This document shows positions 22,290-63,588 of a stretch of 64,000 nt of DNA, one piece after another. The first letter of the stretch is position 1, and each line of letters starts with the position of its first letter. This stretch comes from Candidatus Zixiibacteriota bacterium. Lineage in GTDB: Bacteria > Zixibacteria > MSB-5A5 > WJJR01. Under the pieces are notes generated by a model. It did not search any database, was not told the DNA's origin, and was given only the letters and a program-made list of their open reading frames with translations. Location of the stretch: assembly GCA_036397555.1 (NCBI GenBank), contig DASWIS010000008.1, positions 544,206 through 608,205 on the forward strand, written 5' to 3'. The position numbers and the translations under genes were made by a program.

Positions 22290-22383
22290 CCAAGAGTCCC
22301 CAAGAAAGTGATGGACACAAGCGTCGCAACGCGCTACAACCATCGTGACGGGTTGACTTGCGCGCCACGTCCTTGAGCAAATC
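22290..22383 (+). repeat. imperfect direct repeat L (~80% identical to 24109-24204)
   Basis: Shares ccaaga..cccc-aagaaagtgatggacac..gcgctac..ttgcgcgcca..cttgagcaaatc with the helicase 5' region. Confidence 0.7.
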
Positions 22384-49521: not shown

Positions 49522-51228
49522 TTACCTCAGCAAAACCATCTGATGCACTCTTGCGACGCCGTCTGAAACCAGACGGGCAAAGTAGACACCCGAGCCGACC
49601 GGACGCCCGTTATCGCCGCGTCCCTCCCAGTTCACAGTGTGCGATCCGGGCGCCAGGAGACCGTCGACCAACGTGGCGACCTTGCGGCCCAGAACATCGT
49701 AGACGTCAAGCTGTACCGGCTGATCGCCCACCGATGAAAACCGTATGGTAGTCGAGGGATTGAACGGATTGGGATAATTGAACAGATCGATTTCGTAGTC
49801 GATCGTGCCCAATCCGCGGTCGTCCTCAATGCCGGTCTCCAGTGTCACGGAGAAATCGGCCGACATGCTCGGCCCGGACGCGGAAATGTTCGTGATTGTC
49901 ACGAACGTTTGCGCCCCGGCGTAGTTGTCCGAATTGGGCGTCGAGGCCGCGGAAAACGTGGTCTTGTTGGTGGTCCCGGGGAACGGATCGGCGCCATCGC
50001 CATAGTCGAGATTCTGTTCCAATTCCCAGAGACCGTCCGCCTGCTCCAACGCAACCCAGTAGTTCCCCGATGACGTGTGTCCGGGGTACCATTCCTTCGT
50101 ATTGCCGCTCTGGCTGTCGTCGATGTGCCAGATGCAAAGCCCTGAGCCCGGTATACCCGTATCGTAGCCGGTCTTCTGACGGTTCTCGATCAGGAAATAC
50201 TGGTTTCCGCCGGCGCCGTCGGACCAAACCCGGTACACGGTCGGCGAGGTCTCAACCGCCGGCAGGTTGACTCCGGTCAGATTCGAACTGACGACCGTCG
50301 GTGTGACGAAGCCGACCTGGCTTTTGCACCACGCGTCCATGTGCGCGGGCGAATTGCCCAACGATCCGTTCCACGAACCTGACGCCATCAGAGACCAGCG
50401 GCCCAGACCGCGCGAGCTGCCGTCGATGTCGTACAAATCCGGAAGCCCGAACAGGTGTCCGATCTCGTGGGCGTAGACACCGATCGTAATGTCGCCGGGA
50501 GAATTCCAGTATTCCGGCTGAACCGAGTACGCGCTGACATAAACACCGTCCCGGAGATTGGCGCTGATTCCCCATTTGTGCGACCAGATGTCATTGACGC
50601 TGCCGGTGAACTCCGCTCCCGCACCGGAATGCATGATGACCAGTCCGTCGACATACCCGTTCCCGTCGTTGTCGTAGTCTGAGAAATCGACGAGCGGATC
50701 GATCAATGCCACCAGGTCCTGCGTCAGCCTCTGCGTGTTATTCGGATAACTCCCCATGCCGAAGTTGCCGTTGACGTAGTACGCGTATGTTTGCGGGGCA
50801 CGCTGCCAGCCGAGCGACGACGGGAGATTGACCGTGACCATTGTGAGATTGCCGTAGCTCATCTCGCTGTAAAAGTGGCGCACCGACCCCGATCCGGTTG
50901 AGAAAATCAGGTTGTCCAGCACGGTGGCGCTGACCTGCGACACCTTGTCGGAGAAGTCCACGCAGATCGCCAAAACGTTAAAGTCCCCGGAGACCGTGAT
51001 GCCGGCCGCCATGCCTCCTCCGGGTGTGCAAATGCCGCGCTCCTGAAAATGCCCGCGCATCTCGGAATACAGTCCGATCCCGGCCGCCATCGACGGGGAG
51101 CCCTGGCGCAAGCTGTCCGGGAAGGGAGGCATCGCAACCAGCTCGGATAGCGGGCCGGATGCACACAGAGCGAGACAGCCCAATGCGACCCCGCACGCCA
51201 GCGTAGTTGCTCTGCCTTTAGCCATCAT
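49522..51228 (-). CDS. M6-family (immune inhibitor A-like) metalloprotease with T9SS C-terminal sorting domain
   Basis: HEIGHLFGLPDLYD zinc motif. The C-terminal ~80 aa match the Por_Secre_tail pattern (NYPNPFNPST..LDVYDVLGRKV..GVYFARL). Confidence 0.8.
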   Translation of the reverse strand: MMAKGRATTLACGVALGCLALCASGPLSELVAMPPFPDSLRQGSPSMAAGIGLYSEMRGHFQERGICTPGGGMAAGITVSGDFNVLAICVDFSDKVSQVSATVLDNLIFSTGSGSVRHFYSEMSYGNLTMVTVNLPSSLGWQRAPQTYAYYVNGNFGMGSYPNNTQRLTQDLVALIDPLVDFSDYDNDGNGYVDGLVIMHSGAGAEFTGSVNDIWSHKWGISANLRDGVYVSAYSVQPEYWNSPGDITIGVYAHEIGHLFGLPDLYDIDGSSRGLGRWSLMASGSWNGSLGNSPAHMDAWCKSQVGFVTPTVVSSNLTGVNLPAVETSPTVYRVWSDGAGGNQYFLIENRQKTGYDTGIPGSGLCIWHIDDSQSGNTKEWYPGHTSSGNYWVALEQADGLWELEQNLDYGDGADPFPGTTNKTTFSAASTPNSDNYAGAQTFVTITNISASGPSMSADFSVTLETGIEDDRGLGTIDYEIDLFNYPNPFNPSTTIRFSSVGDQPVQLDVYDVLGRKVATLVDGLLAPGSHTVNWEGRGDNGRPVGSGVYFARLVSDGVARVHQMVLLR

Positions 51229-51952
51229 TATGATCCCTGCCCTTCTGGGTGTGTGAATGGGAGCCGAACACCGACTCCGCTGATCGTCACGACCGCACTC
51301 GTCGATTACGCGATGGGAGATGCGGGCCGGTTCCGGACAATCCTCAGTCTGATTTGATTCCGTTAAAGCGGTCGCCGACAGGACACATTCAGAGGCATCG
51401 TCGCATTCGCCTGAAGCAATCCGAGGAGTTTGGAATCGTAGTTCGTGTTTGGCCGGTTTCATTATTCCCCCCAAGGAACAAATCCTCCTGAGTGCGAGGC
51501 ACTTCAGCGCAAGGGGCGTGCCGACGACAAGACCGCTCTGACCATATCGCCGATGAGGCGTAAGTCAACCTATGTCAATGCGTTAGGCTCTAACCGTCAC
51601 GGGGCGGGTTCTCCGGGGACCAAGGGACCTCTCATTTCGCTGTGGAGAGTATGGGGGCTTTCCGACACCCACTCGGTCAGAGACGAGCCGTTGACCGCAG
51701 CGTGAATTCAATGCGGAGGGTCCGTAAGTTGCTATTCGCAGATTCTGCGACGCGGAAACCTGCGCTGATTGGGAAAACTACTTGACAAGGATGGGCTTAT
51801 AGCGAGATTGCTTTTGACAAGAGTCGGTGGTCGAGCCGTTTCGGCATCTCACGATCCGACGATTACCTCAGGCGCATCGGCCGACCACAGGCAACGCATC
51901 GCAGTATTTGAGAATCAAAATCGCTCTTTCTTAGGTAAGGAGGCGGGCTCAG

Positions 51953-52313: not shown

Positions 52314-55277
52314 TTGAAATTGAGCATGAAGCCCCTTCCTCACGATGCTTCCGCGTTGCGCGAGACTATGGACGGCGTCGTACGTCTGCTCGACGACGAC
52401 AACGTCACCGCGGCAGTGAACTTGATGGATCGTCTGGAGAGCGAAGCGCCCGTCACCCCCGGGGCCCCGCTCTTCGGCGAATGGTGCATGGTGCGCGCAC
52501 GCCTGGCCCATGCCGAAGGACGGTATACCGATGCCGTCCGGGAGGCGCGTGCGTGCCTCGACATGATCCAATCGACCGGTTCTGACGCGGCAATTGCGGA
52601 CGTTCACCGCCTGTTGGGCGGCGCCTATCTCGGGATGGGTGTCACCAAGAGCGCTCGGATGCACGCGCGCGATGCCATCGCCATTTATCGGCGTATCGGA
52701 GATCAAAATGGTGTGATGCATGCCGCCAATGACCTGGCACGCATTCACTTCGTCAGCAGCGAATACACTCTCGCCATCGACTTCCTCAATGATGCCGTCG
52801 AGATCGCCCGCCAGACGGGCAACCACGAACGTGAAACGGCGTTCATTGGGAATCTCGGTCGGATCTACCTGCTGCAGGGGCAGTGGCAATTGGCGCACGA
52901 GGCCCTGTCGCAAGCGTGTGGCCGAGCGGAGCGGGCCGGGAAAGACAGTTCGACCGCACGCAATCTGCTGTCGTTAGGATACCTTGGGATCCTTCGACAC
53001 GAATTTGAAGCGTCTGCGCTATGCCTGGACCGAGCGTTGCAATACATCGAGCGCGCGGGATTGGTGCGGGAACGATCGATCCACTTTGAATACACCGGCT
53101 GGTGGCATTTCGAGCAACGGCACTGGATTCAGGCCAAGGAGGACTTCCGCTCGGCGCTGCAAATCGGCCAGAAACTGAGTTCCGAAAACGATTTGGTCTC
53201 ACAATCGCTCCGAGGGCTGGCCGAGTGCGAAGCCGCCCTGGGAGATTGGCCCGAGGCGCAACGATTGGCGGAATCGGGCTTATCCGTGGCCCTTGAGATC
53301 GGTGAGCGTGTGGAAGTCGGCTGCCTGTACCGGGTCATCGCCGAGGCGATGGCGCGCCGGGGCGACGTCAACGGTGCGCAGACCGCCCTGTCACGGGCGC
53401 AAGAAAACCTCGACGTGGCTGCCGATCCGTATGAGTCGGCACGTTTTCAGGTTGTCGCGGCGCGAGTCCTGACGCTGCTGCCGCAATCCGAGCCAACCGC
53501 GATCGTCGATTCGCTGCGCGAGGCACTCAACACGTTCGAGCGATTGGGTGCCTCCGCGCAGGCGACCGAGGTCTGCATATTGCTCGTTGAAGCATTGCGA
53601 AGTGCGGGCCGGTTGGACGAGGCCATTCAGTACGCACGCGCGGTCGAGCGACAAAAGGCGGGGGAATCCTCCGGTTCTGATGACGTCGCTGACCACTGTG
53701 CCTTGCAGTCGGCCCTCTCGAAGTCATGTGTCACCCATGCGCTCTCCAGTGCCAACGAGTTCCGACTCGGTGGCGTGCCGTGGGCGGTCGCCGCACTGGA
53801 CGGTGAGTCGCGCGACGATCTCCAGCAGGCAGTCGCGTTCTTCCGTACCCGGATCAACGCCTCCCGTGCGGTCCTTCTGGAGGTCACTGTTGATGGCGCA
53901 CGGACCGGAAGTGTTGTCACTGTGTCCGGGGCGAATGAAGACTTTGCACATCATTTGGGCGAGTTCGTGGCCAGCCCCTATCAGCGCGAACTGCCGACCG
54001 ATGCGCCGAGATTCTACTGGTCTCATGGAACCACTCCTGATCTGACCGCTCATTTTTCCGAGCATGATGAACCCGCCCCCGTCGCCGTCATCTCTGTCCC
54101 GGTGGAACTGGGGCCGGGCGCGTCGGGGCTGCTTTATGCGGATGTCCTCGGTCAAGACGCCGCGGGCCAGCCGATCCGGTTTGGACCGCGCGATCTGGAC
54201 TTCGCGGTCGCATTTGCCGAAATCGTCGCGTGGCGATCCACACGATTGCGCTCTGAAGGGCTCCATCGCGATGTGCGACGCTTGCGGGACCAACTGGCAA
54301 ACTCCAGCGATTTCCCCAGCATCATCACCCAGAATGAAGCCCTGCGCGACACGCTATCGCGTGTGCGCATGGTCGTCGACACGGATGTCTCGATCCTGCT
54401 GTTGGGAGAGACGGGAACCGGTAAGGACCTGCTCGCTCGCGCCATACATTTCTCCAGCGATCGCCGCGACCACCGCTTTGTCTCCGTCAATTGCGCCGCC
54501 CTGCCCGAGTCGCTGTTGGAAAGCGAGTTGTTTGGTGTCCGGCGCGGGGCCTTCACGGGCGCCGATCGTGACAAAGCCGGGCTGTTCGAGGAGGCGGACG
54601 GGGGTACGTTTTTCTTAGACGAGATCGGGGAAATGCCGGTTTCGCTGCAGGCGAAGCTCCTGCGACTGCTGGAGAACAAAGAGTTGACGCGCTTGGGTGA
54701 CACGCGCCCGCGACAAGTCGATGTGCGCGTCATTTCGGCGACCAATAGCGATCTGTCCGGCGATACCGCGCGTGGCACATTCCGGCGAGACCTGTTTTAC
54801 CGCCTCGCTCCGCTGACATTTACGCTGCCGCCGCTGCGGGAACGCCGTGAAGACATCCCGCTGCTTCTCGACCACATCTTAACGCGCGTATGTGACGAGG
54901 CAGGACGCAAAGTGCGGCTGCTTCCGGAAACTGTCCGGGTCCTGTGCAATTATGACTGGCCGGGCAATGTCCGCGAACTGGAGAATGAAATCCGCAAGCT
55001 GATCCTGCTCGCCGGAGCCGAAGGGACCATCGGGCCGGAACGTCTCGCCCAGAAGCTTCTGGAGACGTGCGATACACTGGGCCAGCCCGGCACGGCCCCC
55101 GCGCTGCCCGAACGCTTCTCGCTGTACGACCACATGGCGCAATTAGAACGACGGTTCATCGCGCACGCGCTGGCCGAGTCGGACGGGATCAAAAAACACG
55201 CCGCCGCGCGGCTCGGAATGCCCGAATCGACCCTGCGCCTGAAGATGAAGCAGTACGATCTGGACGTCGGCGCATAG
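52314..55277 (+). CDS. σ54-dependent transcriptional activator with N-terminal TPR repeats (987 aa)
   Basis: AAA+ σ54-interaction domain (GETGTGKD, GAFTGA, GTFFLDEIGEMP). C-terminal Fis-type HTH. Confidence 0.85.
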   Translation: MKLSMKPLPHDASALRETMDGVVRLLDDDNVTAAVNLMDRLESEAPVTPGAPLFGEWCMVRARLAHAEGRYTDAVREARACLDMIQSTGSDAAIADVHRLLGGAYLGMGVTKSARMHARDAIAIYRRIGDQNGVMHAANDLARIHFVSSEYTLAIDFLNDAVEIARQTGNHERETAFIGNLGRIYLLQGQWQLAHEALSQACGRAERAGKDSSTARNLLSLGYLGILRHEFEASALCLDRALQYIERAGLVRERSIHFEYTGWWHFEQRHWIQAKEDFRSALQIGQKLSSENDLVSQSLRGLAECEAALGDWPEAQRLAESGLSVALEIGERVEVGCLYRVIAEAMARRGDVNGAQTALSRAQENLDVAADPYESARFQVVAARVLTLLPQSEPTAIVDSLREALNTFERLGASAQATEVCILLVEALRSAGRLDEAIQYARAVERQKAGESSGSDDVADHCALQSALSKSCVTHALSSANEFRLGGVPWAVAALDGESRDDLQQAVAFFRTRINASRAVLLEVTVDGARTGSVVTVSGANEDFAHHLGEFVASPYQRELPTDAPRFYWSHGTTPDLTAHFSEHDEPAPVAVISVPVELGPGASGLLYADVLGQDAAGQPIRFGPRDLDFAVAFAEIVAWRSTRLRSEGLHRDVRRLRDQLANSSDFPSIITQNEALRDTLSRVRMVVDTDVSILLLGETGTGKDLLARAIHFSSDRRDHRFVSVNCAALPESLLESELFGVRRGAFTGADRDKAGLFEEADGGTFFLDEIGEMPVSLQAKLLRLLENKELTRLGDTRPRQVDVRVISATNSDLSGDTARGTFRRDLFYRLAPLTFTLPPLRERREDIPLLLDHILTRVCDEAGRKVRLLPETVRVLCNYDWPGNVRELENEIRKLILLAGAEGTIGPERLAQKLLETCDTLGQPGTAPALPERFSLYDHMAQLERRFIAHALAESDGIKKHAAARLGMPESTLRLKMKQYDLDVGA

Positions 55278-55349
55278 ATTCGCGCTGCCGACCGTCGTGT
55301 GACAAACCCGCGGTGTTCTCCGCGGGGTTTTTTGTATCCTGCGCAGGCG

Positions 55350-56168
55350 ATGACTCCAACTTGGCGGTGCCTTCCGCACTACGCATTGCGCGCCCGACAA
55401 CAGATGGCGCTCGACTACGAACTGCTCGAGACGTGCCGGACCGAGCGGGACACCGCCTTCCTGCGCTTCTACCGCATGGACCCGCCCGCGGTGACGATCG
55501 GGCGAAACCAGCAGTGGCAGCATGTTGTTTCGCCGCATCGCTGCTCGGAGATGGGCTGGGAATGGGCTCGCCGCCCGACCGGGGGCGGCGCGTTGCTGCA
55601 TCGAAACGAGATCAATTACGCGATCATCGCCGGGCCGGGTTCCCTCGGATTGGCCGCCAATGCGGGCTTCACTGCCACCCTGCTCACGATCCTCAGTCGT
55701 CTCCAACGGATGCTGATTCGTGCCGGGATCCCCGCCGCGATCGAATCCGGTCGTGCCGACACCATGCCACCAAACGGACGACAACATGGCCTGTGCGGCC
55801 GGTCGCTGACCGGATATGAGATCGGTCTTGACGGGGGCAAGTTGCTCGCGGCCGCGCAGTTCATGTCCCAGGATGTCGTACTGCAGCATGGCACCGTTTA
55901 TCTCCATGCTCCCGTTGATGATGGAATATTTTGGCCCGATGACTCCCATGGACTCCGGGCCCGCACCCAACGGTGGACATCCATGCCGCTGGAGTTTCAG
56001 GATTGCGGGTGGCAAGAATCCGCCGATCGGTTACGGGCTTGCTTTCACGACACCAGCGAGAGCGGGCACTTCGCGGTGGAATCCTGGCTTCCGCCTGATT
56101 CCCTTTGGGATCGGGTTCGCCGACGAGCCGACACATGGCAGCGAGAGCACTGGGACACTTTCCGTTGA
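55350..56168 (+). CDS. biotin/lipoate protein ligase family (LplA/LipM-like)
   Basis: RRPTGGGALLH motif of the BPL_LplA_LipB catalytic domain. Confidence 0.65.
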   Translation: MTPTWRCLPHYALRARQQMALDYELLETCRTERDTAFLRFYRMDPPAVTIGRNQQWQHVVSPHRCSEMGWEWARRPTGGGALLHRNEINYAIIAGPGSLGLAANAGFTATLLTILSRLQRMLIRAGIPAAIESGRADTMPPNGRQHGLCGRSLTGYEIGLDGGKLLAAAQFMSQDVVLQHGTVYLHAPVDDGIFWPDDSHGLRARTQRWTSMPLEFQDCGWQESADRLRACFHDTSESGHFAVESWLPPDSLWDRVRRRADTWQREHWDTFR

Positions 56169-56494: not shown

Positions 56495-59400
56495 ATGATG
56501 CGACCTTCTGAGATCGGAAACCGGATTCGGAGATGGACCCCGTTGGTCCTCGCCGGGATCTGGATCGCATCGGCTTCACAGGGATTTGCGGCCAACGGCA
56601 AGATCGCCGGACAGGTTTTGGACAATAAGTCCAAGGAGCCGCTCATTCAGGCGACCGTCCAGGTCGTCGGGACCACATTGGGTGCGGTCACCGACATCGA
56701 TGGTCGATTCCAGATTCTGGCCGTGCCCGTCGGTGAACATTCCGTCAGGGCGAGCATCATGGGATATCAGCCGGTCGTGGTTACCGGCATCCTGGTCAAG
56801 CCGGATCAGACCGAAAACGTTTCCTTCGATCTTGACGAAAGCGCGGTCGAATTGGAGGCGGTGATCGTCAGGGCGGAAATCGACCTGATCCAGATGGATC
56901 AAGCCACGACAAAACGAGATGTCAGCGCCGAAAAGATCAAGACCCTTCCCGTCACCAACGTCGGCGACATTATCGCGATGACCCCGGGCGTGACCGTTCG
57001 TAACGATCGCTTTCACATCCGAGGCGGGAGATCGTCCGAAGTCCTGTACAATGTCGACGGCGTCTCGATGTCCGATCCGCTCGGCGGACGCGGCCCGACC
57101 CAGGCGTTGAATCTGTCCGGCACCGAGATCGAAAACGTTTCCATCATCAAGGGCGCGTGGTCGCCGGAGTACGGCGGTACCAGCGGCATCATCAGCGTCT
57201 CAACGAAGGATGGCGGCTCCGATACCAAGGGACATGTTCAATACTTCACGGACGATTTCGGGACCAAGAACCTCAACACCTACTCGCGGAATTTTCAGCG
57301 TTTCGAATTCAATCTGGGCGGCCCGGAACCGCTGTTTACCAAGCTCGTGCTCCCGGCGCTGGGACTGGGCGGCCCGTCCGATAAACTGACCTACTTCACG
57401 TCGCTGAACTTCGAACGCTCCGATACCTACACGCCCATCAACAGATTCACGACCGACGCCACGCGGGCGGATTTTCGCGAATTCAAGTTTCTCGCGTGGG
57501 TCCTGCGCGATCGACAGACAAACTTCGGCGACGCCTTGTTCAAAATGTCGTACCGCTTGAGCCCCGACATCCGTCTCACCGGCCAGTACAAGCAGACATA
57601 CGAACGCAACATGCTGTGGCGCTGGAGCTATCGATACGTGCCCAACAACATCCCCTGGGAAGAGGACAAAAGCGAATTCTACAGTCTGCGCTGGACCCAC
57701 AACCTCAGCAAGACCACCTACTACGAAGTCCAGCTCTCCCGGCAACAACGCACCTTCTGGCAAAAGCCGGGGAACCCCAATGTCGCCGGCGGCACGCTGA
57801 ACCCGGATGATTTCCTCTTCGACCATCAGTCCGACACATACGAAGACCGCAATGGCAATGGCGCCTGGGATCCGCCCGAGACCTGGACCGACGTCTATCC
57901 CGACGGCGAGTATACCTTTGGCGATGTCTGGATCGACCGCGACGGCGACGGAAACTATGTCCCTGGAATTGACACGCTGATCTTCGATTTCAACGGAAAC
58001 GGCGTGGTCGATTTTAATGTCGGGGAATCTTTTGTCGATCGCAACGGCAACGGTCGATATGACGAGGGCGATGCGCTGACGCGAGACGGCAACGGCAACG
58101 GCATCTACGATCCCGGCAACGAAGAAGACTTATTCGACATCGAGGGCAGTCCGAATGACATTCCCGAGCCGTACCTCGACGGTGATGTCTCCCTCGGAGA
58201 GCCGTTCACTGATGTCAACCGGAACGGCGTCTACGACGACTCACTGTCGGGATTGCCGTTCGGCGAGCCGTTTGTCGATTTGTCCCACGACAGCAAATAC
58301 CAAGGTCCCAACGACGACTGGGTCGTGGGCGTGCCGTTCCGCGATCTCAATGGCAATGGTGACTTTGATCGGGGATCGTCGACGCCATCCGGCGCGTGGT
58401 CGTCCGATGACGCCAGCTACGACTTCGGAGAACCGTTCAACGACTTAAACGGCGACGGCATCCGCAACGCGGCCGACGGGTTCTATGATCGTGGTTGGGA
58501 TGGATCCGTTGTCTGGCACTATCGCCGTCCGCGCGACACCCGCATGAAGGTTGATCTGGTCAGCCAGATGCGCCGGGAACATGAGGTCAAAATCGGCGGC
58601 GAATACGCGGCGTACGATCTGACATTCGAGGAATTGCAGCAGCCATACGTGGATTTGACGGGGAAAGACCTTGAAAACAGTCTCGGACAGCCATACCCCG
58701 GGCGAGGCACCATCCGCGACTTCTACAATCAGACGCCGAAGACTGGGGCGCTCTACATCGTCGACAAGATGGAATACGGACAGATGATCGCCCATGTCGG
58801 CTTTCGCTACGAGTACTTCATCCAGGCCAATGACGCCTCAGCCGCTGAAGAGGCGGCGATTGGCGAAGATATCCCTTACGCGGACTACCGCGACCGGTTC
58901 GCGCCGCGCATTGCGTTCGCCTATCCGATCTCCGACAAGGCCAAGGTCTTCTTCAATTACGGGCACTTCTACCAACTGCCGCCGCTATTCCAAATGTATG
59001 CGCGTTCGACGTTTACCAACAGCGCTTCGGGGGTCATCGGCAACTTGAACCTCGAGTTCGTCAAGACAATCAAGTACGAGTTTGGCGTCCAATACATGCT
59101 CTCGCCGGAGTACTTGCTGTCCGTTCAGGGGTTCTACTCCGACGATTTCGGCCGCGTGGCCGCCTCGGAGATTCGCGGATACGGCGGACTGGATGCCCGC
59201 AATTTCTATGAAAACTCGGAGTACTCCCGCGCGCGCGGGATCGAATTCGAACTGGAAAAGAAATACGGCAACTACGTTTCCGGATCATTCACCTATGATC
59301 TCTCCTGGGCATTCGGCAAGTCGTCGGCCGAAGCGCTGGATTACTTCGCGAACTTCTATGCGGGCAGCAACGACCGCTTCGTGATTCAGGAGTTCCCGCT

Positions 59401-59863
59401 GGACTGGGATGAACGTCACTCCCTGACGCTCATACTCGACATCCGCGTGCCGGCGAATGACCATCCCAAACTCTTTGGCCGTACCATCCCCAGCGATTGG
59501 GGCCTGAACATATTCTGGCAATACGGATCTGGCTTCCCCTACACACCGAGCACGTCTCATCCGGGGGTCGAGATTGTCGGACAGCTTGAGCCCGACAAGA
59601 ATTCACGACGCTATCCCGCGCACAATAACATCGACGTTCGCTTCAACAAGAATTTTGCCATCGGGCCCATGCACTACGCGTTTGAGGTCTGGGTCTACAA
59701 CGTGCTCGACGAACGGAACATCCGGGAAGTCTACACCGGCACCGGCCGACCCGAAAGCGGGGTCAACCAGAGCCGTGTCATCTATCCGTCCGATGGTCAG
59801 ACCGACCCGCGACTTTGGGAGGCCGGGCGCCAGATTCGTATCGGATTGGGAATGGATTTCTAA
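56495..59863 (+). CDS. TonB-dependent-receptor/SusC-like outer-membrane protein with inserted array of Ca-binding (dockerin/EF-hand-like) repeats
   Basis: Signal peptide, CarbopepD_reg-like domain and TonB plug. Eight DxNGNGxxD-type loops (aa ~450-670). The barrel ends ..GLGMDF. SD GGGAGGA upstream. Confidence 0.8.
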   Translation: MMRPSEIGNRIRRWTPLVLAGIWIASASQGFAANGKIAGQVLDNKSKEPLIQATVQVVGTTLGAVTDIDGRFQILAVPVGEHSVRASIMGYQPVVVTGILVKPDQTENVSFDLDESAVELEAVIVRAEIDLIQMDQATTKRDVSAEKIKTLPVTNVGDIIAMTPGVTVRNDRFHIRGGRSSEVLYNVDGVSMSDPLGGRGPTQALNLSGTEIENVSIIKGAWSPEYGGTSGIISVSTKDGGSDTKGHVQYFTDDFGTKNLNTYSRNFQRFEFNLGGPEPLFTKLVLPALGLGGPSDKLTYFTSLNFERSDTYTPINRFTTDATRADFREFKFLAWVLRDRQTNFGDALFKMSYRLSPDIRLTGQYKQTYERNMLWRWSYRYVPNNIPWEEDKSEFYSLRWTHNLSKTTYYEVQLSRQQRTFWQKPGNPNVAGGTLNPDDFLFDHQSDTYEDRNGNGAWDPPETWTDVYPDGEYTFGDVWIDRDGDGNYVPGIDTLIFDFNGNGVVDFNVGESFVDRNGNGRYDEGDALTRDGNGNGIYDPGNEEDLFDIEGSPNDIPEPYLDGDVSLGEPFTDVNRNGVYDDSLSGLPFGEPFVDLSHDSKYQGPNDDWVVGVPFRDLNGNGDFDRGSSTPSGAWSSDDASYDFGEPFNDLNGDGIRNAADGFYDRGWDGSVVWHYRRPRDTRMKVDLVSQMRREHEVKIGGEYAAYDLTFEELQQPYVDLTGKDLENSLGQPYPGRGTIRDFYNQTPKTGALYIVDKMEYGQMIAHVGFRYEYFIQANDASAAEEAAIGEDIPYADYRDRFAPRIAFAYPISDKAKVFFNYGHFYQLPPLFQMYARSTFTNSASGVIGNLNLEFVKTIKYEFGVQYMLSPEYLLSVQGFYSDDFGRVAASEIRGYGGLDARNFYENSEYSRARGIEFELEKKYGNYVSGSFTYDLSWAFGKSSAEALDYFANFYAGSNDRFVIQEFPLDWDERHSLTLILDIRVPANDHPKLFGRTIPSDWGLNIFWQYGSGFPYTPSTSHPGVEIVGQLEPDKNSRRYPAHNNIDVRFNKNFAIGPMHYAFEVWVYNVLDERNIREVYTGTGRPESGVNQSRVIYPSDGQTDPRLWEAGRQIRIGLGMDF

Positions 59864-59893: not shown

Positions 59894-62602
59894 GTGATGA
59901 TGCCCATGGACTATGAGAGACAGGCCCAAAGCGTGGCCGATCGCGAAACCACGACCATCCGCATGATCCGTCCGATTAGACGGTGTCTCCGGGCGTCGGC
60001 CAGTGCCCTCATCATTGTTGCGCTCAGTGCTGTCTCAACGTGGTCGCGCGACAACCTCCCGTCCACGCCGCCCCTGAAGGGACCGCAGAGCTGGGTCAAC
60101 GCCGCGGCGCCGATCTTCGACCGGCGCGCTCACTACGTCGGTGAAGTCTGGATCTCGGTTTCGAATGACGGCTCCTTCGGCACCAGCCACCAGATGGATG
60201 CCTGCCCTCAGGATGAGATCGACCTGCGCATCAATTGGTGCCCCTCGTTCGAGCTGCCCGGAGGATCGCGAATCGATTATCTGTACAATGGGGGCCTTTG
60301 GGTCGGCGGAATCATCGGAACCGACACGGTCATCACCTTGGGCTATGAGGGATGGGATGAATCGGGCGACGAGTTCAACGGCTACACGACGATATCGACT
60401 GAACTGCCGGCCGGCTACCGTCACCTGGGGTGTTCTCCGAACGCGGACGGCTCCTTCGCGCCCCCGCGTCGGCTGGAACAAATCTACTATTGTCAGTACG
60501 AGGATACGACCCTCACCAATACAAACCAGACCTCGCACATCCCGATGGGCCTCGAAGTGACCCAGGTTACGCATCAGTCGTCCACGAACTTCGCGCGCAA
60601 CTTCGTCATCTGGGACCTCGAAATCAGGAACATCGGCGATAACCTGATCCGCGGCGTCTATCTCGGCGTCTTCGTGGACACGGATATCTACTGGCAATTG
60701 TCAGCCGGCGGAGAAAACAATGCCAACGACGACATCTCCGGGTTTCTGCACACCTGGCCCAATCCCGTCAATCCCGAATTCCGGGACACCTTGAACATTG
60801 CCTGGGCGGCGGACAACGACGGTAAGCCGGAAGGTGACGGCCCGGAAGACCCCTTCCGCCGCCAGGCGGAACGGGGAATCATCGGCTGGAGAGTCCTGCG
60901 CGCCCCCGCCGGCGCCAACATCAGCTACAACTGGTGGACGTCCAGCGGCCAGGGATTGCTCGACTGGGGCCCGCGTCGACTCACTGACCTTCGTGTCTTG
61001 GGCCACGGGGGTCGCGGGACTCCGTCGGGTGATCGCAACAAGTACCACTACATGTCCAATCGTGAAATCGATTACGATCAGTTGTATGCGGGGATTGATC
61101 TGTCGGCATTCGGCTGGGCACGTCCGTTGGCCGCCGCCACCTCGTGCAATCTCGCCGACGGACTAGACACACGCAGCGTTCTGGCCGTTGGCCCGGTCCC
61201 GCAACTGGCGCCGGGTGAGTCGATTCCGTTCACCTTTGCCATGGTCGGCGGATCCGAGTTCCACACTGTTCAGGACAATCCGATTAACTGCAACGACCCG
61301 ACCGGATTCTACAACAATGTCGATTTTTCCGATTTGGCCGGGAACGCCTGGTGGGCCGGTTTCGTGTTCGACAACTTCGGCGTCGACACAGACAACAACG
61401 ACTACGCGGGCGACTACTACCCGGTGCAGGGCTCGGCAGAGGACACGATTTTTTATCGGGGCGATGGCTGTCCCGATTTTGCGGGGCCGGCGCCCCCACG
61501 CGGGCCGGATAACTCGAATCTGACTCTGATCTCCCGCCCGCACGAATTGGAGCTGAATTGGACCGGGGCCAACTCCGAGTTGCAGGTCGATCCGTTGCTG
61601 CGCGTCAGCGACTTTGAGGGGTATCGGCTCTATATTGCCGAGCGCAATACCTCCAGCGACATCCCTTCCTCCGGCGATTACTCGCTGCTCGCCAGTTGGG
61701 ACATCGTCGACTACCGGCGCTACACGTTCCGGGAACTGACCCAGCGCTGGGAACTGACATCCAATCCGTTGACCGTTGACCAATGGCGTGAAGTATTCGA
61801 CGATCCCGATTTCGATCCCGAGCTCTATCTCTCCTCAGAATTCGATGCGGAATTCCCTCGGGACAGTGCGTATCAGTACCTTGGCGCCGAAGGCGAAGAG
61901 CAGCGCGCCTACTTCGTGCCGCAGGACTACAATCAGAGCAACACGATCATCGATCAGGAGCAGCCGCGCGACAACCTGATTCAACGCATCGACATTCGCG
62001 ACACGATCATCGGACTGGATACGCTCCAGTACGGTGTCTATCGCGTCGTCCTCGAAAACCGATTACCGTCGAAATACTACTTCGTGTCCGTTACGGCGTT
62101 CGACTTCGGCGACCCGGATAACGACCTGGACCCGCTGGAAACGGTTCCCGGCGGACAGAATAACCGGGTCGGCGGAATTCCCATCTACTCATCCGATGTC
62201 GTCGAAAACTATTGGGGCACCGGAGGGGCACAGCGGGATTCGGTGCGCGTCTCGGTCTATCCCAATCCGTACAAGTCGGTCATCGCGCTGGCGGACGGCA
62301 ACTCTTCAACCTACTTTGATGAGGGGTTGGAGGGGACCTTCGGACAGGAGACGTTCGGCGACCGCGATCGGCGCATCCACTTCATCAACCTGCCCGACAG
62401 CGCCACCGTGAGCATTTACACGCTCGACGGCGACTTGGTACGGGAGTTGCATCATCCCGACCCCACCCTCTCGAGTTATCCGTCGAAGATTTCCTGGGAC
62501 CTCGTTTCGCGCAATACGCAGGCGGTCGAGTCCGGTATCTATATCTACCGCGTCGATTCTAAACTGGGCGCGCAAATCGGAAAGTTGGTCATCATCAAGT
62601 AA
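59894..62602 (+). CDS. large secreted protein with T9SS C-terminal sorting domain, hypothetical
   Basis: Signal peptide. C-terminus VYPNPY..IHFINLP..VSIYTLDGDLV..GIYIYRV..GKLVIIK resembles Por_Secre_tail. Confidence 0.7.
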   Translation: MMMPMDYERQAQSVADRETTTIRMIRPIRRCLRASASALIIVALSAVSTWSRDNLPSTPPLKGPQSWVNAAAPIFDRRAHYVGEVWISVSNDGSFGTSHQMDACPQDEIDLRINWCPSFELPGGSRIDYLYNGGLWVGGIIGTDTVITLGYEGWDESGDEFNGYTTISTELPAGYRHLGCSPNADGSFAPPRRLEQIYYCQYEDTTLTNTNQTSHIPMGLEVTQVTHQSSTNFARNFVIWDLEIRNIGDNLIRGVYLGVFVDTDIYWQLSAGGENNANDDISGFLHTWPNPVNPEFRDTLNIAWAADNDGKPEGDGPEDPFRRQAERGIIGWRVLRAPAGANISYNWWTSSGQGLLDWGPRRLTDLRVLGHGGRGTPSGDRNKYHYMSNREIDYDQLYAGIDLSAFGWARPLAAATSCNLADGLDTRSVLAVGPVPQLAPGESIPFTFAMVGGSEFHTVQDNPINCNDPTGFYNNVDFSDLAGNAWWAGFVFDNFGVDTDNNDYAGDYYPVQGSAEDTIFYRGDGCPDFAGPAPPRGPDNSNLTLISRPHELELNWTGANSELQVDPLLRVSDFEGYRLYIAERNTSSDIPSSGDYSLLASWDIVDYRRYTFRELTQRWELTSNPLTVDQWREVFDDPDFDPELYLSSEFDAEFPRDSAYQYLGAEGEEQRAYFVPQDYNQSNTIIDQEQPRDNLIQRIDIRDTIIGLDTLQYGVYRVVLENRLPSKYYFVSVTAFDFGDPDNDLDPLETVPGGQNNRVGGIPIYSSDVVENYWGTGGAQRDSVRVSVYPNPYKSVIALADGNSSTYFDEGLEGTFGQETFGDRDRRIHFINLPDSATVSIYTLDGDLVRELHHPDPTLSSYPSKISWDLVSRNTQAVESGIYIYRVDSKLGAQIGKLVIIK

Positions 62603-62646: not shown

Positions 62647-63588
62647 ATGAAGAGACTGCTCTCACTCGTCACGCAAACAGGATTCTGGGCCATCCTGCTG
62701 ATGATCGGCGCTGGGTCGGCGCGCGCCCAGGACAAAGTCGGATCGACCGGAGCGCAATTCCTCGAAATCGGCGTCTCACCCCGTGCCGATGCGATGGGCA
62801 ATGCGTTTACGGCCATCGCCGACGACGTCTCGGCCGTGTACTACAACCCCTCGGGGCTCGTGCAATTCGATCATCCTCAGGTGATGTACTCCTACATCGA
62901 TTATCCGGTCGGCATCATGTACCACTTCATCGGTGCGGCATTACCCGCCCTGGGCGGTATGATCGGGTTCGCATACTATGGATTGGATGCCGGCGACATC
63001 TCGTACACGACGCACTACAGCCAGACGCCCACGCCGGGATGGACATTCGGTGCGCGGGACTACGCGTTGTCATTCTCCTACGCGCGATTCCTCACCGACC
63101 GGTTCTCTCTGGGTGCCACGATTAAGGTTATTGACGAGCTCTACGAGGAAGAGCGGGCCAGTGGCTGGGCAGCCGACGTCGGCACCCAATACAACACCGG
63201 GTTCCGCAACTTCAAGATCGTGATGATGCTTTCGAATTTCGGGCCCGACATGAGCTTCATTGAAGACGAGTTCGCGCTGCCGATCAACTTTAAGTTCGGG
63301 GGGGCCATCGATGTCATGGATTCGCCCGAACACCACGCCATTCTCGCGGTGGAGGGAGCACATCCGTCCGATAACCGCGAACGGTACAACGCCGGGGTGG
63401 AATACACCTACCAGGAGTTTGCGTCGTTCCGCTTCGGCCAGCGATTTGAACATGACTTGGGAGGGCTTTCGGTTGGCGGCGGTCTCAAACTGAATTCCGT
63501 CGGCGTGCCGTTGCAGCTTGACTATGGCTATCGTGACTTTGAAGTGCTCGGTGACATTCACCGCTTTTCGTTCACACTCGATTTGTAG
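62647..63588 (+). CDS. porV: PorV-like outer-membrane β-barrel (T9SS-associated)
   Basis: N-terminus GAQFLEIGVSPRADAMGNAFTAIADDVSAVYYNPSGL matches PorV/LptO-family proteins. Confidence 0.65.
   Translation: MKRLLSLVTQTGFWAILLMIGAGSARAQDKVGSTGAQFLEIGVSPRADAMGNAFTAIADDVSAVYYNPSGLVQFDHPQVMYSYIDYPVGIMYHFIGAALPALGGMIGFAYYGLDAGDISYTTHYSQTPTPGWTFGARDYALSFSYARFLTDRFSLGATIKVIDELYEEERASGWAADVGTQYNTGFRNFKIVMMLSNFGPDMSFIEDEFALPINFKFGGAIDVMDSPEHHAILAVEGAHPSDNRERYNAGVEYTYQEFASFRFGQRFEHDLGGLSVGGGLKLNSVGVPLQLDYGYRDFEVLGDIHRFSFTLDL

What the first reader, a model, noticed from the sequence alone, without database searches (positions are those of the whole stretch)
57800..58510. Array of ~8 dockerin/EF-hand-like Ca-binding repeats (DxNGNGxxD) inserted into a TonB-dependent-receptor-like barrel
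The repeats include DRNGNGAWD, DRDGDGNYV, DFNGNGVVD, DRNGNGRYDEGD, DGNGNGIYD, DVNRNGVYD, DLNGNGDFD and DLNGDGIRNAADGF. They lie between the plug and the C-terminal barrel of the 1122 aa protein. Such an extracellular Ca-binding or cohesin-docking array in a SusC/TBDR scaffold is unusual. It could tether partner proteins carrying cohesin-like modules, or bind cations or polysaccharides.
Basis: seen in the sequence. Interest (0 to 1): 0.6.

Follow-up and report, generated by a model that had tools for sequence, protein, structure and literature searches.

The report
Calcium-loop domain in transporter surface loop
A Zixibacteria outer-membrane TonB-dependent transporter carries a conserved, very acidic ~235-residue domain of calcium-binding-type repeats in one cell-surface loop; the domain is real and matches no described family, but it is not a dockerin.

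Summary
ORF 56495..59863 (+, 1122 aa) has eight D-x-[ND]-[GR]-[ND]-G motifs at aa 451-658, plus two degenerate ones; shuffling predicts 0.02. The protein is a TonB-dependent transporter with a CarboxypepD_reg extension, a plug and a 22-strand barrel (AlphaFold pLDDT 84.9; Foldseek E to 7e-29).

The repeats lie between strands 7 and 8, in extracellular loop 4, not between plug and barrel. That loop is 204-275 aa in 46 aligned Zixibacteria homologues. It is 18-55 aa in 34 repeat-free relatives from KSB1, WOR-3 and Ignavibacteria.

The putative metal-ligand positions are the most conserved columns of the protein. The dockerin reading fails: no Pfam, NCBIfam or PDB match, no helices, no Foldseek hit, no cysteine. 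The domain is built from about 16-17-residue "GEPFxDxNGNGxYD" units that form two ~100-aa modules. These also occur in giant repeat proteins and in ~350-aa lipoproteins, all unannotated.

Best reading: a Ca2+-held acidic cap (net charge -44) that helps capture ligand or dock a partner. The gene sits in a conserved cluster of transporter, CTD-bearing protein and PorV-like protein. Calcium binding and function are inferred, not shown. This is a new variant of a known kind.

The parts
56495..59863 (+). Gene for the 1122-aa TonB-dependent transporter that hosts the repeat array
   Evidence: ORF. Pfam CarbopepD_reg_2, CarboxypepD_reg and Plug. PF00593 barrel at E=1.6e-18 on the C-terminal fragment. 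AF2 22-strand model, pLDDT 84.9. Foldseek matches to PqqU, PfeA and BtuB. The protein ends in ...GMDF.
56603..56869 (+). N-terminal extension: CarboxypepD_reg-like Ig-fold domain (aa 37-125), expected to be periplasmic
   Evidence: PF13715 E=1.2e-20 and PF13620 E=6.4e-16. [quoted passage not shown]
56852..56878 (+). TonB-box-like motif LEAVIVRAE (aa 120-128)
   Evidence: Read from the sequence. It aligns with GEEVVVTS of the second TBDR in the window. It resembles the TonB-box consensus (my knowledge). Function not tested.
56897..57181 (+). Plug domain (aa 135-229)
   Evidence: PF07715 E=1.4e-13, 51.7 bits against a cut-off of 23.9.
57227..57766 (+). Barrel strands beta1-beta7 (aa 245-424)
   Evidence: DSSP of the AF2 model gives strands 245-252, 268-277, 298-309, 342-354, 359-373, 388-403 and 408-424. 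The tight turns at 355-358 and 404-407 are periplasmic.
57767..58510 (+). Extracellular loop L4 with the whole insert (aa 425-672): 248 aa, 55 Asp+Glu against 11 Lys+Arg, no Cys
   Evidence: It lies between beta7 and beta8, and 15 strands follow it, so it starts and ends on the extracellular side. The loop is 204-275 aa in the family and 18-55 aa in insert-less relatives. Composition. pLDDT is mostly 85-93 in the full model.
57827..58129 (+). N-module of the insert (aa ~445-545), with the sites at aa 451, 481, 498, 515 and 531
   Evidence: pLDDT 85-94 in the insert-only model. It corresponds to profile positions ~22-124, the part that recurs many times in giant proteins.
58130..58162 (+). Variable, low-confidence linker between the two modules (aa ~546-556)
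   Evidence: pLDDT falls to 63-74 in the full model and 42-45 in the insert-only model. The alignment has variable length here.
58163..58489 (+). C-module of the insert (aa ~557-665): PEPYxDGDxSLGEPF, the sites at aa 573, 595 (degenerate), 617 and 650
   Evidence: It corresponds to profile positions ~128-230. The same ~100-aa module occurs once in 65 proteins of <=420 aa, 41 of which have a lipobox-like motif. E558, D562, G563, D564, G568, E569 and D573 are invariant.
57845..57871 (+). Ca-loop-like site 1, DRNGNGAWD (aa 451-459), with E462 at loop position 12
   Evidence: Ligand positions conserved 0.91-1.0. Glu at position 12 in 100% of 46 sequences.
57935..57961 (+). Site 2, DRDGDGNYV (aa 481-489), the least conserved
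   Evidence: Ligand positions conserved only 0.43-0.89.
57986..58012 (+). Site 3, DFNGNGVVD (aa 498-506)
   Evidence: Ligand positions conserved 0.70-0.96.
58037..58063 (+). Site 4, DRNGNGRYD (aa 515-523), preceded by GESF
   Evidence: Ligand positions conserved 0.96-1.0. Position 12 is Asp in 84%.
58085..58111 (+). Site 5, DGNGNGIYD (aa 531-539)
   Evidence: Ligand positions conserved 0.87-1.0.
58211..58237 (+). Site 6, DVNRNGVYD (aa 573-581), preceded by the invariant GEPF
   Evidence: Ligand positions conserved 0.91-1.0.
58277..58303 (+). Degenerate site, DLSHDSKYQ (aa 595-603). It reads DLNxNGxYD in most homologues.
   Evidence: Positions 1, 3 and 5 are conserved 0.98-1.0, Gly6 0.5 and position 9 0.74.
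58343..58369 (+). Site 7, DLNGNGDFD (aa 617-625)
   Evidence: Ligand positions conserved 0.93-1.0.
58442..58468 (+). Site 8, DLNGDGIRN (aa 650-658), preceded by GEPF
   Evidence: Ligand positions conserved 0.96-1.0.
58511..59857 (+). Barrel strands beta8-beta22 (aa 673-1121)
   Evidence: 15 strands in DSSP, with tight 2-5-residue periplasmic turns at 694-695, 762-763, 812-815, 869-872, 923-927 and 1057-1058. PF00593 and PF25183 hits.
59894..62602 (+). Co-encoded 902-aa protein with no known domain apart from a T9SS-type C-terminal sorting domain. It is a likely surface partner.
   Evidence: Por_Secre_tail E=1.5e-4, below the cut-off. The C-terminal domain ...SGIYxYxVxSxLGxQxGKxVIIK is conserved across phyla. 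314 homologues, all 'hypothetical'; only one of the 120 listed (P0390) has a precomputed Pfam domain, the CTD-type PF18962/PF13860.
62647..63588 (+). PorV/PorQ-family outer-membrane beta-barrel (313 aa). It is the likely anchor for the CTD protein.
   Evidence: NF033709 PorV_fam E=1.1e-56, 192.9 bits against a cut-off of 90. An orthologue follows the TBDR in every related locus examined.
55299..56168 (+). LplA/LipB-like gene immediately upstream; conserved neighbour
   Evidence: PF21948 E=3.3e-20. It has the same position in 5 of 5 Zixibacteria loci.
52314..55277 (+). TPR/MalT-like sigma-54 enhancer-binding protein; conserved upstream neighbour
   Evidence: Sigma54_activat E=3e-67, HTH_8 and TPR hits. 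Present upstream in 4 of 5 Zixibacteria loci.

Best explanation
The gene encodes a TonB-dependent outer-membrane transporter of the CarboxypepD_reg (Oar / SusC-like) architecture. Its fourth extracellular loop, between strands 7 and 8, carries a ~235-residue domain.

The domain is built from ~16-17-residue units of the form (G)EPFxD-x-N-G-N-G-x-Y-D. Each unit holds a DxDxDG-type calcium loop, with ligands at positions 1, 3 and 5, the backbone of position 7, position 9, and in some sites an acidic residue at position 12. Six sites are nearly invariant and three or four are variable, so I expect roughly 6-9 bound Ca2+ ions.

The domain has a net charge of -44, no cysteine and almost no regular secondary structure. 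I therefore infer that the calcium ions supply its core. It would fold only once it is outside the cell, as thrombospondin type-3 and RTX repeats do. The result would be a rigid, acidic cap or platform above the barrel mouth.

I infer that this cap takes part in capturing the transported ligand, in docking the co-encoded surface protein, or both. That protein is the 902-aa CTD-bearing one, which the adjacent PorV/PorQ-like barrel probably holds at the surface. The cluster would then be a sigma-54-regulated, PUL-like nutrient-uptake module.

Shown here: the TBDR identity, the loop position, the insertion relative to homologues, the conservation of ligand positions and the synteny. Inferred: calcium binding, calcium-dependent folding, and the cap or docking role.
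For: TBDR identity:
- Plug and CarboxypepD_reg domains.
- PF00593 at E=1.6e-18 on aa 670-1122.
- AF2 model with pLDDT 84.9, pTM 0.78 and 22 strands.
- Foldseek hits to PqqU, PfeA, FhuA and BtuB, E down to 7e-29, target TM-score up to 0.81.

Loop position: 7 strands precede the insert and 15 follow it, and the tight turns alternate with long loops.

Insertion: the loop is 204-275 aa in 46 family members and 18-55 aa in 34 relatives. Those relatives have no motifs in the loop; four carry a single stray DxDxDG match elsewhere.

Selection on ligand positions: mean column entropy is 0.71 bits there, against 1.89 for the rest of the insert and 1.66 for the barrel. Six sites keep D1, [DN]3, [DN]5, G6 and [DNE]9 in 87-100% of sequences. 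The first Asp of those motifs is invariant.

Non-random motif count: 7 observed against 0.02-0.07 expected.

A folded rather than disordered domain: pLDDT is 85-94 with almost no helix or strand.

Autonomous modules: the insert profile finds 1744 proteins at E<=1e-3. They include giant tandem arrays and ~350-aa lipoproteins that carry the C-module alone.

Context: an orthologous PorV-like gene follows the TBDR in every related locus examined (5 Zixibacteria including the window, 3 insert-less). The CTD protein lies between them in 3 of the 5 Zixibacteria loci. In the Ignavibacteria locus the cluster also contains a CBM53 / SusE-F-like / CBM20 protein with a T9SS tail, which points to polymer uptake.

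Precedent for Ca2+-ordered TBDR loops: BtuB with bound calcium (1nqg, listed; its mechanism is from my knowledge).
Against: No metal binding was measured, and AlphaFold2 places no ions.

I could not read model coordinates. Whether the domain covers the barrel mouth, projects outward or touches other loops is therefore unknown.

In this sequence Asn outnumbers Asp at positions 3 and 5 (DxNGNG). That is compatible with Ca2+ ligation, as in dockerin loops, but gives lower charge density than DxDxDG.

Site 481 is poorly conserved, and site 595 is degenerate in this very sequence.

Two of the five Zixibacteria loci (L001, L009) have the PorV-like gene but not the 902-aa family next to the TBDR. A fixed one-to-one partnership with that protein is therefore not established.

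The substrate is unknown, and every partner protein is 'hypothetical'.

No sigma-54 promoter was recognisable upstream of the gene.
Confidence: 0.55

Rival explanations
1. The array is a set of dockerin-like modules that tether cohesin-bearing partner proteins to the transporter, giving a cellulosome-style assembly on a TBDR.
For: The loops have the D-x-N-x-[DN]-G pattern that dockerin Ca loops also have. Three or four sites carry an acidic residue at position 12. A co-encoded surface protein exists.
Against: There is no PF00404 hit, nor any other Pfam hit, at E<=10, and no NCBIfam hit. A dockerin is a ~70-aa, three-helix pair of loop-helix segments, whereas the insert model has essentially no helix. 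Foldseek against 350,542 PDB chains, which include dockerins, gives nothing better than E=8.9. A profile search of PDB sequences gives nothing significant. The only 'scaffoldin' hits in the PDB search concern the N-terminal Ig-like domain, aa 23-107, not the repeats. Neither of the two downstream cluster genes gave any Pfam hit other than Por_Secre_tail, PorV and Toluene_X, so no cohesin was seen.
Confidence: 0.04
2. The acidic Ca-loop domain is itself the ligand-binding organ. It would bind anionic polymers such as pectate, alginate, eDNA or EPS through calcium bridges. Alternatively it would bind mineral or metal-cation surfaces. Either way it acts as an adhesin or antenna that feeds the barrel.
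For: The net charge is -44 and there are many carboxylate and amide ligands. The same modules form long arrays in giant, probably surface, proteins and in lipoproteins, which is typical of adhesin-like repeats. A related locus carries starch-binding CBMs. This shows that glycan capture is part of the ancestral module.
Against: No carbohydrate-binding, lectin or metallophore family is detectable in the insert. Conservation is concentrated on the metal-ligand positions and the GEPF framework, not on an obvious surface patch. That fits a structural role for the ions at least as well.
Confidence: 0.15
3. The domain has an envelope-structural or protective role. It would cross-link through Ca2+ to LPS, an S-layer or neighbouring outer-membrane proteins. 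Alternatively it would shield the barrel mouth from phages and bacteriocins that use TBDR loops as receptors.
For: TBDR loops are common phage and colicin receptors, as in the FhuA-pb5 and Cir-colicin complexes listed. The domain is lineage-specific. It shows length variation and extra repeats in some members. That pattern is expected under surface arms races.
Against: Six sites and the GEPF framework are conserved down to 36% overall identity. That is the opposite of diversifying selection. The strict association with one orthologous TBDR in a conserved operon argues for a role tied to that transporter's own function.
Confidence: 0.1
4. The transporter works outward, as Myxococcus Oar does for PopC. 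The L4 domain would then be an exit-side receiver or chaperone for the co-encoded CTD protein.
For: The architecture is the CarboxypepD_reg NTE class of Oar. PF25183, the Oar-like barrel, gives a partial hit. A large secreted protein is encoded directly downstream.
Against: The downstream protein carries a T9SS-type C-terminal domain and is paired with a PorV/PorQ-like protein. Together these already imply a different export and anchoring route. Insert-less relatives have the same partners, so the insert is not required for whatever the core module does.
Confidence: 0.07

Closest known systems
TonB-dependent transporters of the CarboxypepD_reg (Oar) subclass, e.g. Myxococcus xanthus Oar (PMC6434023)
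   Same: Signal peptide, CarboxypepD_reg N-terminal extension, TonB-box-like motif, plug and 22-strand barrel.
   Different: Oar and the insert-less relatives have an ordinary short L4. Here L4 is ~248 aa and carries 8-10 Ca-loop motifs. PF25183 matches only partially. The neighbours are a PorV-like protein and a CTD protein.
E. coli BtuB (PDB 1NQG), a TBDR whose extracellular loops are ordered by two Ca2+ ions
   Same: It is a TBDR in which acidic loop residues bind Ca2+ on the extracellular side and so shape the ligand site (my knowledge; structure listed).
   Different: BtuB uses a few scattered Asp residues in short loops, not a repeat domain. It has no DxDxDG array and two ions rather than the ~6-9 predicted here.
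Thrombospondin type-3 repeats (and bacterial TSP3 repeats in OmpA-like proteins)
   Same: These are tandem short Asp/Asn/Gly-rich DxDxDG-type loops that wrap Ca2+ ions with little secondary structure. The ions serve as the core. This is the closest functional analogy for how the insert probably works.
   Different: There is no PF02412 or PF18884 hit and no cysteine or disulfide. The framework (GEPFxD...YD) and period differ, and Foldseek finds no match.
Type I dockerin (PF00404) and canonical EF-hands
   Same: The loops are D-x-[DN]-x-[DN]-G loops, and three or four sites have an acidic residue at position 12.
   Different: There are no flanking helices, no duplicated 22-residue loop-helix unit and no HMM or structural match.
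SusC/SusD polysaccharide-utilisation pairs of Bacteroidota
   Same: A CarboxypepD_reg-TBDR is encoded beside surface-exposed proteins. In a related Ignavibacteria locus one of these is a SusE/F-like, CBM-bearing protein.
   Different: TIGR04056 scores far below its cut-off and there is no SusD. The partners are T9SS-CTD proteins plus a PorV/PorQ-like barrel instead of lipoproteins.
PorQ-PorZ and PorV-PorU pairs of the Porphyromonas T9SS attachment complex
   Same: A PorV/PorQ-family barrel is encoded next to a protein with a T9SS-type C-terminal domain. In P. gingivalis such pairs keep the CTD protein anchored at the surface (my knowledge).
   Different: Here the pair is embedded in a transporter operon, sometimes duplicated, and lies outside Bacteroidota. 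The NCBIfam PorQ and PorV equivalog cut-offs are not reached; only the family-level model NF033709 is.

Membership tests
TonB-dependent receptor/transporter | Plug domain (PF07715) | tested here: met
   E=1.4e-13, 51.7 bits against a cut-off of 23.9, aa 135-229.
TonB-dependent receptor/transporter | TonB_dep_Rec beta-barrel (PF00593) | tested here: met
   Not reported on the full-length sequence. It scores E=1.6e-18, 68.2 bits against a cut-off of 27, when aa 670-1122 are scanned alone. Most homologues carry the precomputed PF00593 hit.
TonB-dependent receptor/transporter | 22-strand barrel enclosing the plug; structural similarity to solved TBDRs | tested here: met
   AF2 DSSP gives 7 + 15 strands. 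Foldseek gives 222 PDB hits at E<=1e-3, the top 50 all TBDRs, with target TM-score up to 0.81.
TonB-dependent receptor/transporter | Functional TonB box that interacts with TonB | not testable with these tools
   The motif LEAVIVRAE at aa 120-128 resembles the consensus and aligns with GEEVVVTS of a paralogue. The interaction itself was not tested.
SusC/RagA subfamily | TIGR04056 above its trusted cut-off | tested here: not met
   78.6 bits against a cut-off of 368.25, and only aa 36-250 match.
SusC/RagA subfamily | Adjacent SusD/RagB-family lipoprotein gene | tested here: not met
   The downstream genes are a 902-aa CTD protein with no SusD Pfam hit and a PorV-like barrel.
Oar subclass of TBDTs | CarboxypepD_reg N-terminal extension before the plug | tested here: met
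   PF13715 and PF13620, aa 37-125. The definition is from PMC6434023.
Oar subclass of TBDTs | Oar-like barrel (PF25183) over its full length | tested here: inconclusive
   33.7 bits, but the best stretch covers only profile positions 585-720 of 838. Some homologues carry the hit.
Dockerin (type I/II) | Match to PF00404 | tested here: not met
   There is no dockerin hit for the insert at E<=10; the only Pfam hit is ZirS_C at E=0.11, far below its cut-off.
Dockerin (type I/II) | Duplicated ~22-residue segment, each a Ca loop followed by an alpha-helix | tested here: not met
   DSSP shows only 3-5-residue helical turns in aa 425-672. Repeat spacing is irregular, 16-42 aa.
Dockerin (type I/II) | Structural similarity to solved dockerins | tested here: not met
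Dockerin (type I/II) | Cognate cohesin encoded in the genome | not testable with these tools
   Only 64 kb of the genome is available. No cohesin hit was seen among the window proteins scanned.
Canonical EF-hand | Helix-loop-helix with a 12-residue loop and an acidic bidentate ligand at position 12 | tested here: not met
   There are no flanking helices. Position 12 is acidic only at site 451 (E, 100%), site 515 (D, 84%), site 650 (D, 69%) and site 498 (E, 41%). There is no EF-hand Pfam hit.
DxDxDG calcium-binding loop class (a motif class, not a homologous family) | D1, [DN]3, [DN]5, G6 and an acidic or amide residue at position 9 | tested here: met
   Eight sites in this sequence. Six are conserved at 87-100% per position across 46 homologues. 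Actual metal binding was not tested.
Thrombospondin type-3 / bacterial TSP3 repeats | Match to PF02412 or PF18884; Cys-containing DxDxDGxxDxxDxC units | tested here: not met
   No Pfam hit and zero cysteines in the insert.
PorV/PorQ family (neighbour gene 62647..63588) | NF033709 above its cut-off | tested here: met
   192.9 bits against a cut-off of 90. The PorQ and PorV equivalog models are below their cut-offs.

The most novel reading that the evidence does not exclude
The two Ca-loop modules in L4 form a built-in, calcium-dependent lid or docking platform. It would take over the role SusD plays in Bacteroidota. It would belong to a so far undescribed class of nutrient-uptake loci that is widespread in non-Bacteroidota FCB phyla (Zixibacteria, KSB1, Ignavibacteria). 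In these loci a TonB-dependent transporter works with surface proteins that are anchored by dedicated PorV/PorQ-like barrels through T9SS-type C-terminal domains, rather than by lipidation. The 'GEPFxDxNGNGxYD' unit would then be a new, widespread family of extracellular calcium-binding repeats.
Probability: 0.15. Interest if true: 0.75.

Novelty: new variant of a known kind. Interest (0 to 1): 0.5.

Why it matters
TonB-dependent transporters are the main route by which Gram-negative bacteria take up scarce or bulky nutrients, and specificity lies in their extracellular loops. Here one loop has acquired a complete ~235-residue domain that looks calcium-built. The domain is conserved across a whole candidate phylum that has no cultured model organism.

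The building block matches no Pfam, NCBIfam or PDB entry. Yet its profile finds more than 1,700 cluster representatives, among them giant surface-type proteins and small lipoproteins. Defining it would annotate a visible piece of protein 'dark matter'.

The surrounding cluster is transporter, CTD protein and PorV-like barrel. An orthologous PorV-like gene follows the transporter in every related locus checked, in three or more phyla. This hints at a PUL-like uptake system organised differently from SusC/SusD.

None of this is demonstrated biochemically. For now the value is as a well-defined target: a soluble 248-aa fragment whose calcium binding can be tested directly.

Tried and rejected
- Dockerin, EF-hand and TSP3 membership was tested by Pfam at E<=10, NCBIfam, a PDB sequence profile and Foldseek against the PDB. 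All were negative. The only PDB profile hit was a chitodextrinase at E=0.08, which I judged to be noise.
- The 'cellulosomal scaffoldin' hits looked like a lead for the dockerin idea. They map to the N-terminal Ig-like domain (aa 23-107), not to the repeats, so I rejected them.
- I looked for further copies of the repeat in the window and in two related loci with an HMM of the insert. Only the TBDR itself matched.
- The second TBDR in the window (35161..37782, -) was tried as an internal comparator without the insert. It is too distant to be useful, at 21% identity in the N-terminus only.
- The genomic context of the small C-module lipoproteins showed stand-alone genes or tandem paralogues with no link to a TBDR. 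It gave no information on function.
- A sigma-54 promoter upstream of the TBDR was sought. No convincing GG-N10-GC element lies in 56169-56494. Window-wide matches to TGGCAC-N5-TTGCW are at chance level, 25 against 26 expected.
- Literature searches found no description of this protein family or repeat.
- DNA-level repeat finders show only motif-core similarity. Recent tandem duplication or an assembly artefact is rejected.


Full report
**1. The observation**

The ORF at 56495..59863 (+) encodes 1122 aa. Window 57800-58510 corresponds to aa 436-672. All eight quoted motifs are present, with their first Asp at aa 451, 481, 498, 515, 531, 573, 617 and 650. Two degenerate sites accompany them: DGD at aa 562 and DLSHDS at aa 595.

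Seven motifs fit the strict pattern D.[ND]G[ND]G. Shuffling the whole protein gives a mean of 0.02 and a maximum of 2 in 20,000 trials. Shuffling only the D/N/G-rich insert gives a mean of 0.07 and a maximum of 3.

At the DNA level only the ~20-nt motif cores resemble each other, at 70-85% and with different synonymous codons. The repeat is therefore old and maintained at the protein level. It is not slippage or an assembly artefact.

**2. The host protein**

- Pfam finds CarbopepD_reg_2 / CarboxypepD_reg (aa 37-125) and Plug (aa 135-229).
- The barrel family PF00593 is not reported on the full-length protein. It scores E=1.6e-18 when aa 670-1122 are scanned alone, together with a partial PF25183 (Oar-like barrel) hit.
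- An AlphaFold2 model built on an 80-sequence alignment has mean pLDDT 84.9 and pTM 0.78.
- Foldseek against the PDB returns 222 hits at E<=1e-3. The top 50 are all TonB-dependent transporters: PqqU at 7e-29, PfeA, FhuA and BtuB, with target TM-score up to 0.81.
- A TonB-box-like motif LEAVIVRAE (aa 120-128) precedes the plug, and the protein ends in Phe.
- The SusC/RagA model TIGR04056 scores 78.6 against a cut-off of 368, and there is no SusD neighbour.

The protein is thus a TBDR with the N-terminal architecture of the Oar subclass (PMC6434023). It is not a SusC.

**3. Where the array sits**

DSSP on the model gives seven barrel strands before the insert: 245-252, 268-277, 298-309, 342-354, 359-373, 388-403 and 408-424. 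Fifteen strands follow it, from 673-693 to 1113-1121, which makes 22 in all.

Tight 2-5-residue turns lie at 355-358, 404-407, 694-695, 762-763, 812-815, 869-872, 923-927 and 1057-1058. They alternate with long connections.

It is established that both ends of a TBDR barrel are periplasmic and that the periplasmic turns are the short ones. The connection between strands 7 and 8 is therefore extracellular loop L4. Counting from the N-terminus and from the C-terminus gives the same answer.

Its statement that the array lies 'between the plug and the C-terminal barrel' is imprecise.

I could not read model coordinates. The position of the domain relative to the barrel mouth is therefore unknown.

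**4. It is an insertion, and a conserved one**

The homologue search found a family of ~1105-1190-aa proteins with 36-64% identity and full coverage. Where they are named, the label is nearly always Zixibacteria (a few read 'Acidobacteriota' or just 'bacterium'). It also found shorter relatives (884-1017 aa) from KSB1, WOR-3, Ignavibacteria and unnamed bacteria.

All 86 family clusters have 4-10 DxDxDG motifs at matching positions. The 34 shorter relatives have none in this loop; four carry a single stray match elsewhere. In the alignment, the segment equivalent to aa 426-660 is 204-275 aa in the family and 18-55 aa in the relatives.

Within the insert, the putative ligand positions (1, 3, 5, 6 and 9 of each motif) have a mean column entropy of 0.71 bits. 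The rest of the insert has 1.89 bits and the barrel 1.66 bits.

Sites 451, 515, 531, 573, 617 and 650 keep each ligand position in 87-100% of 46 sequences. Sites 498 and 595 are intermediate, and site 481 is weak. The first Asp of the six core sites, and the block E558/D562-G563-D564/G568-E569, are invariant.

**5. What the domain is, and is not**

The insert has 55 acidic and 11 basic residues, a net charge of -44, and no cysteine. In the model it has almost no helix or strand, yet pLDDT is mostly 85-94.

Several searches for a known family were negative:

- Pfam at E<=10 and NCBIfam at E<=1 give no significant match. The only Pfam hit is ZirS_C at E=0.11, 12.5 bits against a cut-off of 26.
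- A profile search of all PDB sequences gives no significant hit. The best is E=0.08, a chitodextrinase.
- Foldseek of the insert-only model (pLDDT 76.5) against the PDB gives no hit. The best is E=8.9.

Dockerin membership is therefore tested and not met. There is no HMM match, no loop-helix duplication and no structural match. Canonical EF-hand and thrombospondin type-3 membership are not met either.

What remains is the loop-level motif class DxDxDG. This class occurs in many structural contexts (Rigden and Galperin's classification, my knowledge). Some sites also have an acidic residue at position 12: E in 100% at site 451, D in 84% at site 515 and D in 69% at site 650.

The recurrent unit is ~16-17 aa, of the form (G)EPFxD-x-N-G-N-G-x-(Y/W)-D-x-G.

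**6. The same modules occur elsewhere**

An HMM of the insert was searched against 1.84 billion cluster representatives. It finds 1744 proteins at E<=1e-3 and 437 at E<=1e-10. Apart from the TBDR family there are two classes:

- **Large proteins of 600-4800 aa with 5-21 matched stretches.** These match mainly profile positions ~22-124, the N-module. Examples are P0126, and P0132 which also has a TolB-like propeller.
- **Proteins of <=420 aa that carry profile positions ~128-230 (the C-module), usually once, at residues ~60-160.** There are 65 of them among the top hits, and 41 have a lipobox-like motif. At least one is annotated as Zixibacteria.

In the insert-only model the two halves are confident and the linker (aa ~546-556) is not.

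The insert therefore looks like two pre-existing autonomous modules placed into L4, rather than an in-situ expansion. None of these proteins has a curated family for the repeat.

**7. Context**

In the window the gene order is:

- TPR / sigma-54 activator (52314..55277)
- LplA/B-like gene (55299..56168)
- TBDR
- 902-aa protein with a weak T9SS C-terminal-domain hit (59894..62602)
- PorV/PorQ-family barrel (62647..63588; NF033709, 1.1e-56)

Four other Zixibacteria loci show the same frame.

| Neighbour of the TBDR | Zixibacteria loci with it (of 5, including the window) |
|---|---|
| LplA/B-like gene upstream | 5 |
| Sigma-54 activator upstream | 4 |
| PorV-like gene within two genes downstream | 5 |
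| 902-aa family between TBDR and PorV-like gene | 3 (duplicated with its PorV-like gene in L002) |

The 902-aa family, its C-terminal domain (...SGIYxYxVxSxxGxxxGKFVIIK) and the PorV-like protein are also present next to the insert-less relatives. These are in KSB1 (L005), an unnamed bacterium (L004) and Ignavibacteria (L003, where only the C-terminal domain matches).

The Ignavibacteria cluster also holds a CBM53 / SusE-F-like / CBM20 protein with a T9SS tail. The 902-aa family has 314 detectable homologues, all 'hypothetical'; only one of the 120 listed (P0390) has a precomputed Pfam domain, the CTD-type PF18962/PF13860.

The core triad therefore predates the insert and looks like a polymer-uptake module. 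The insert is a Zixibacteria-lineage addition to it.

**8. Mechanism**

I commit to the following, and mark what is inferred. The L4 domain binds roughly 6-9 Ca2+ ions through its DxNGNG loops (inferred from the motif and from the conservation of ligand positions). The ions replace a hydrophobic core in a domain with net charge -44, no disulfides and little secondary structure. The domain would therefore fold only outside the cell. This is inferred by analogy with TSP type-3 and RTX repeats.

The result would be a rigid acidic cap or platform on the transporter. It would contribute to ligand capture, to docking of the PorV-like-anchored CTD protein, or to both (inferred from position and synteny).

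A precedent for Ca2+-ordered TBDR loops is BtuB (1nqg; mechanism from my knowledge). I give this explanation a confidence of 0.55.

Rival explanations:

| Rival | Confidence |
|---|---|
| Ca-bridged binding of anionic polymers or minerals by the domain itself | 0.15 |
| Envelope cross-linking or phage shielding | 0.10 |
| Oar-like export role | 0.07 |
| Dockerin-cohesin tether | 0.04 |

**9. Novelty and verdict**

The host is a member of a known kind. The loop domain is a new variant: a large repeat domain of calcium-loop type inserted into L4. It is built from a repeat that no library describes, although the repeat is widespread.

Literature searches found nothing on it. Function is unproven, and the organism is known only from metagenomes.

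Interest is 0.5. This is higher than for an ordinary loop variation, because of the conserved 'dark' domain and the cross-phylum cluster of transporter, CTD protein and PorV-like barrel. It is limited by the lack of any functional handle.

Noticed in passing
window 59894-63588; L002 13435-22551; L003 10741-17054; L004 11000-14174; L005 11062-16670; L008 12593-18126: A PorV/PorQ-like barrel (310-350 aa) follows the CarboxypepD_reg TBDR in every related locus checked. This holds in Zixibacteria and in insert-less relatives from KSB1, Ignavibacteria and an unnamed bacterium. A ~730-900-aa protein with no known domain and a conserved T9SS-type C-terminal domain lies between them in six loci; L001 and L009 lack it and L003 shares only the CTD. 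In L002 the protein-plus-barrel pair is duplicated. In L003 the cluster also holds a CBM53 / SusE-F-like / CBM20 protein with a T9SS tail. This looks like an undescribed PUL-like organisation.
   Followed up: partly
window 55299-56168 (+): A lipoate-protein-ligase-like gene (LplA-B_cat) sits immediately upstream of the transporter in all five Zixibacteria loci examined. I have no explanation for a lipoyl/biotinyl-ligase fold next to an outer-membrane transporter operon.
   Followed up: partly
window 52314-55277 (+) and 51508-51523 (-): The TPR/MalT-like sigma-54 activator is transcribed divergently from a Peptidase_M6 gene with a FlgD_ig-type C-terminal domain (49522..51474, -). A sigma-54-like element CGGCAC-N5-TTGCG lies 34-49 nt upstream of that peptidase's start codon. 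No comparable element precedes the transporter. Window-wide, such matches are at chance level (25 against 26 expected), so this is only a hint.
   Followed up: partly
window 35161-37782 (-): A second TonB-dependent receptor (873 aa) has the same CarboxypepD_reg + Plug + barrel architecture but no repeat insert. It is only ~21% identical in the N-terminal part. It lies next to a sodium:solute symporter gene (33727..35139, -).
   Followed up: partly
L006 3545-5845; L007 1017-2135; L010 8001-9053; L011 8001-8951: A family of ~300-400-aa proteins, most with a lipobox-like motif, carries a single copy of the C-terminal module of the insert followed by an unknown ~200-aa domain. They occur as stand-alone genes or tandem paralogues (390 + 372 aa in L006). 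At least one is annotated as Zixibacteria. They are not linked to a TBDR.
   Followed up: partly
proteins P0125 (4813 aa), P0127, P0129, P0151; P0126, P0132: Giant proteins consist largely of tandem 'EPFxDxNxNGxWDxG' units, with up to 21 matched stretches. In P0129 a ~109-aa super-repeat recurs at least eight times. P0132 joins the array to a TolB-like PD40 propeller, and P0142 joins it to an AI-2E-type permease. No Pfam or NCBIfam model covers the repeat.
   Followed up: partly
window 22001-24000 and 41413-44000: There are two dips in G+C content: 0.507 and 0.549, against ~0.60 elsewhere. The first covers two ORFs with no Pfam hit (21675..22478 -, 22384..23643 +). The second covers an Mrr-type restriction endonuclease gene (41413..43062). 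Both may be horizontally acquired.
   Followed up: no
window 56495-56810 (aa 23-107 of the transporter): The N-terminal Ig-like domain gives weak sequence hits (E 1e-4 to 4e-3) to the X-module region of clostridial cellulosomal scaffoldins in the PDB. This is a shared Ig-like fold and unrelated to the Ca-loop repeats. It could mislead a dockerin-minded reading.
   Followed up: yes
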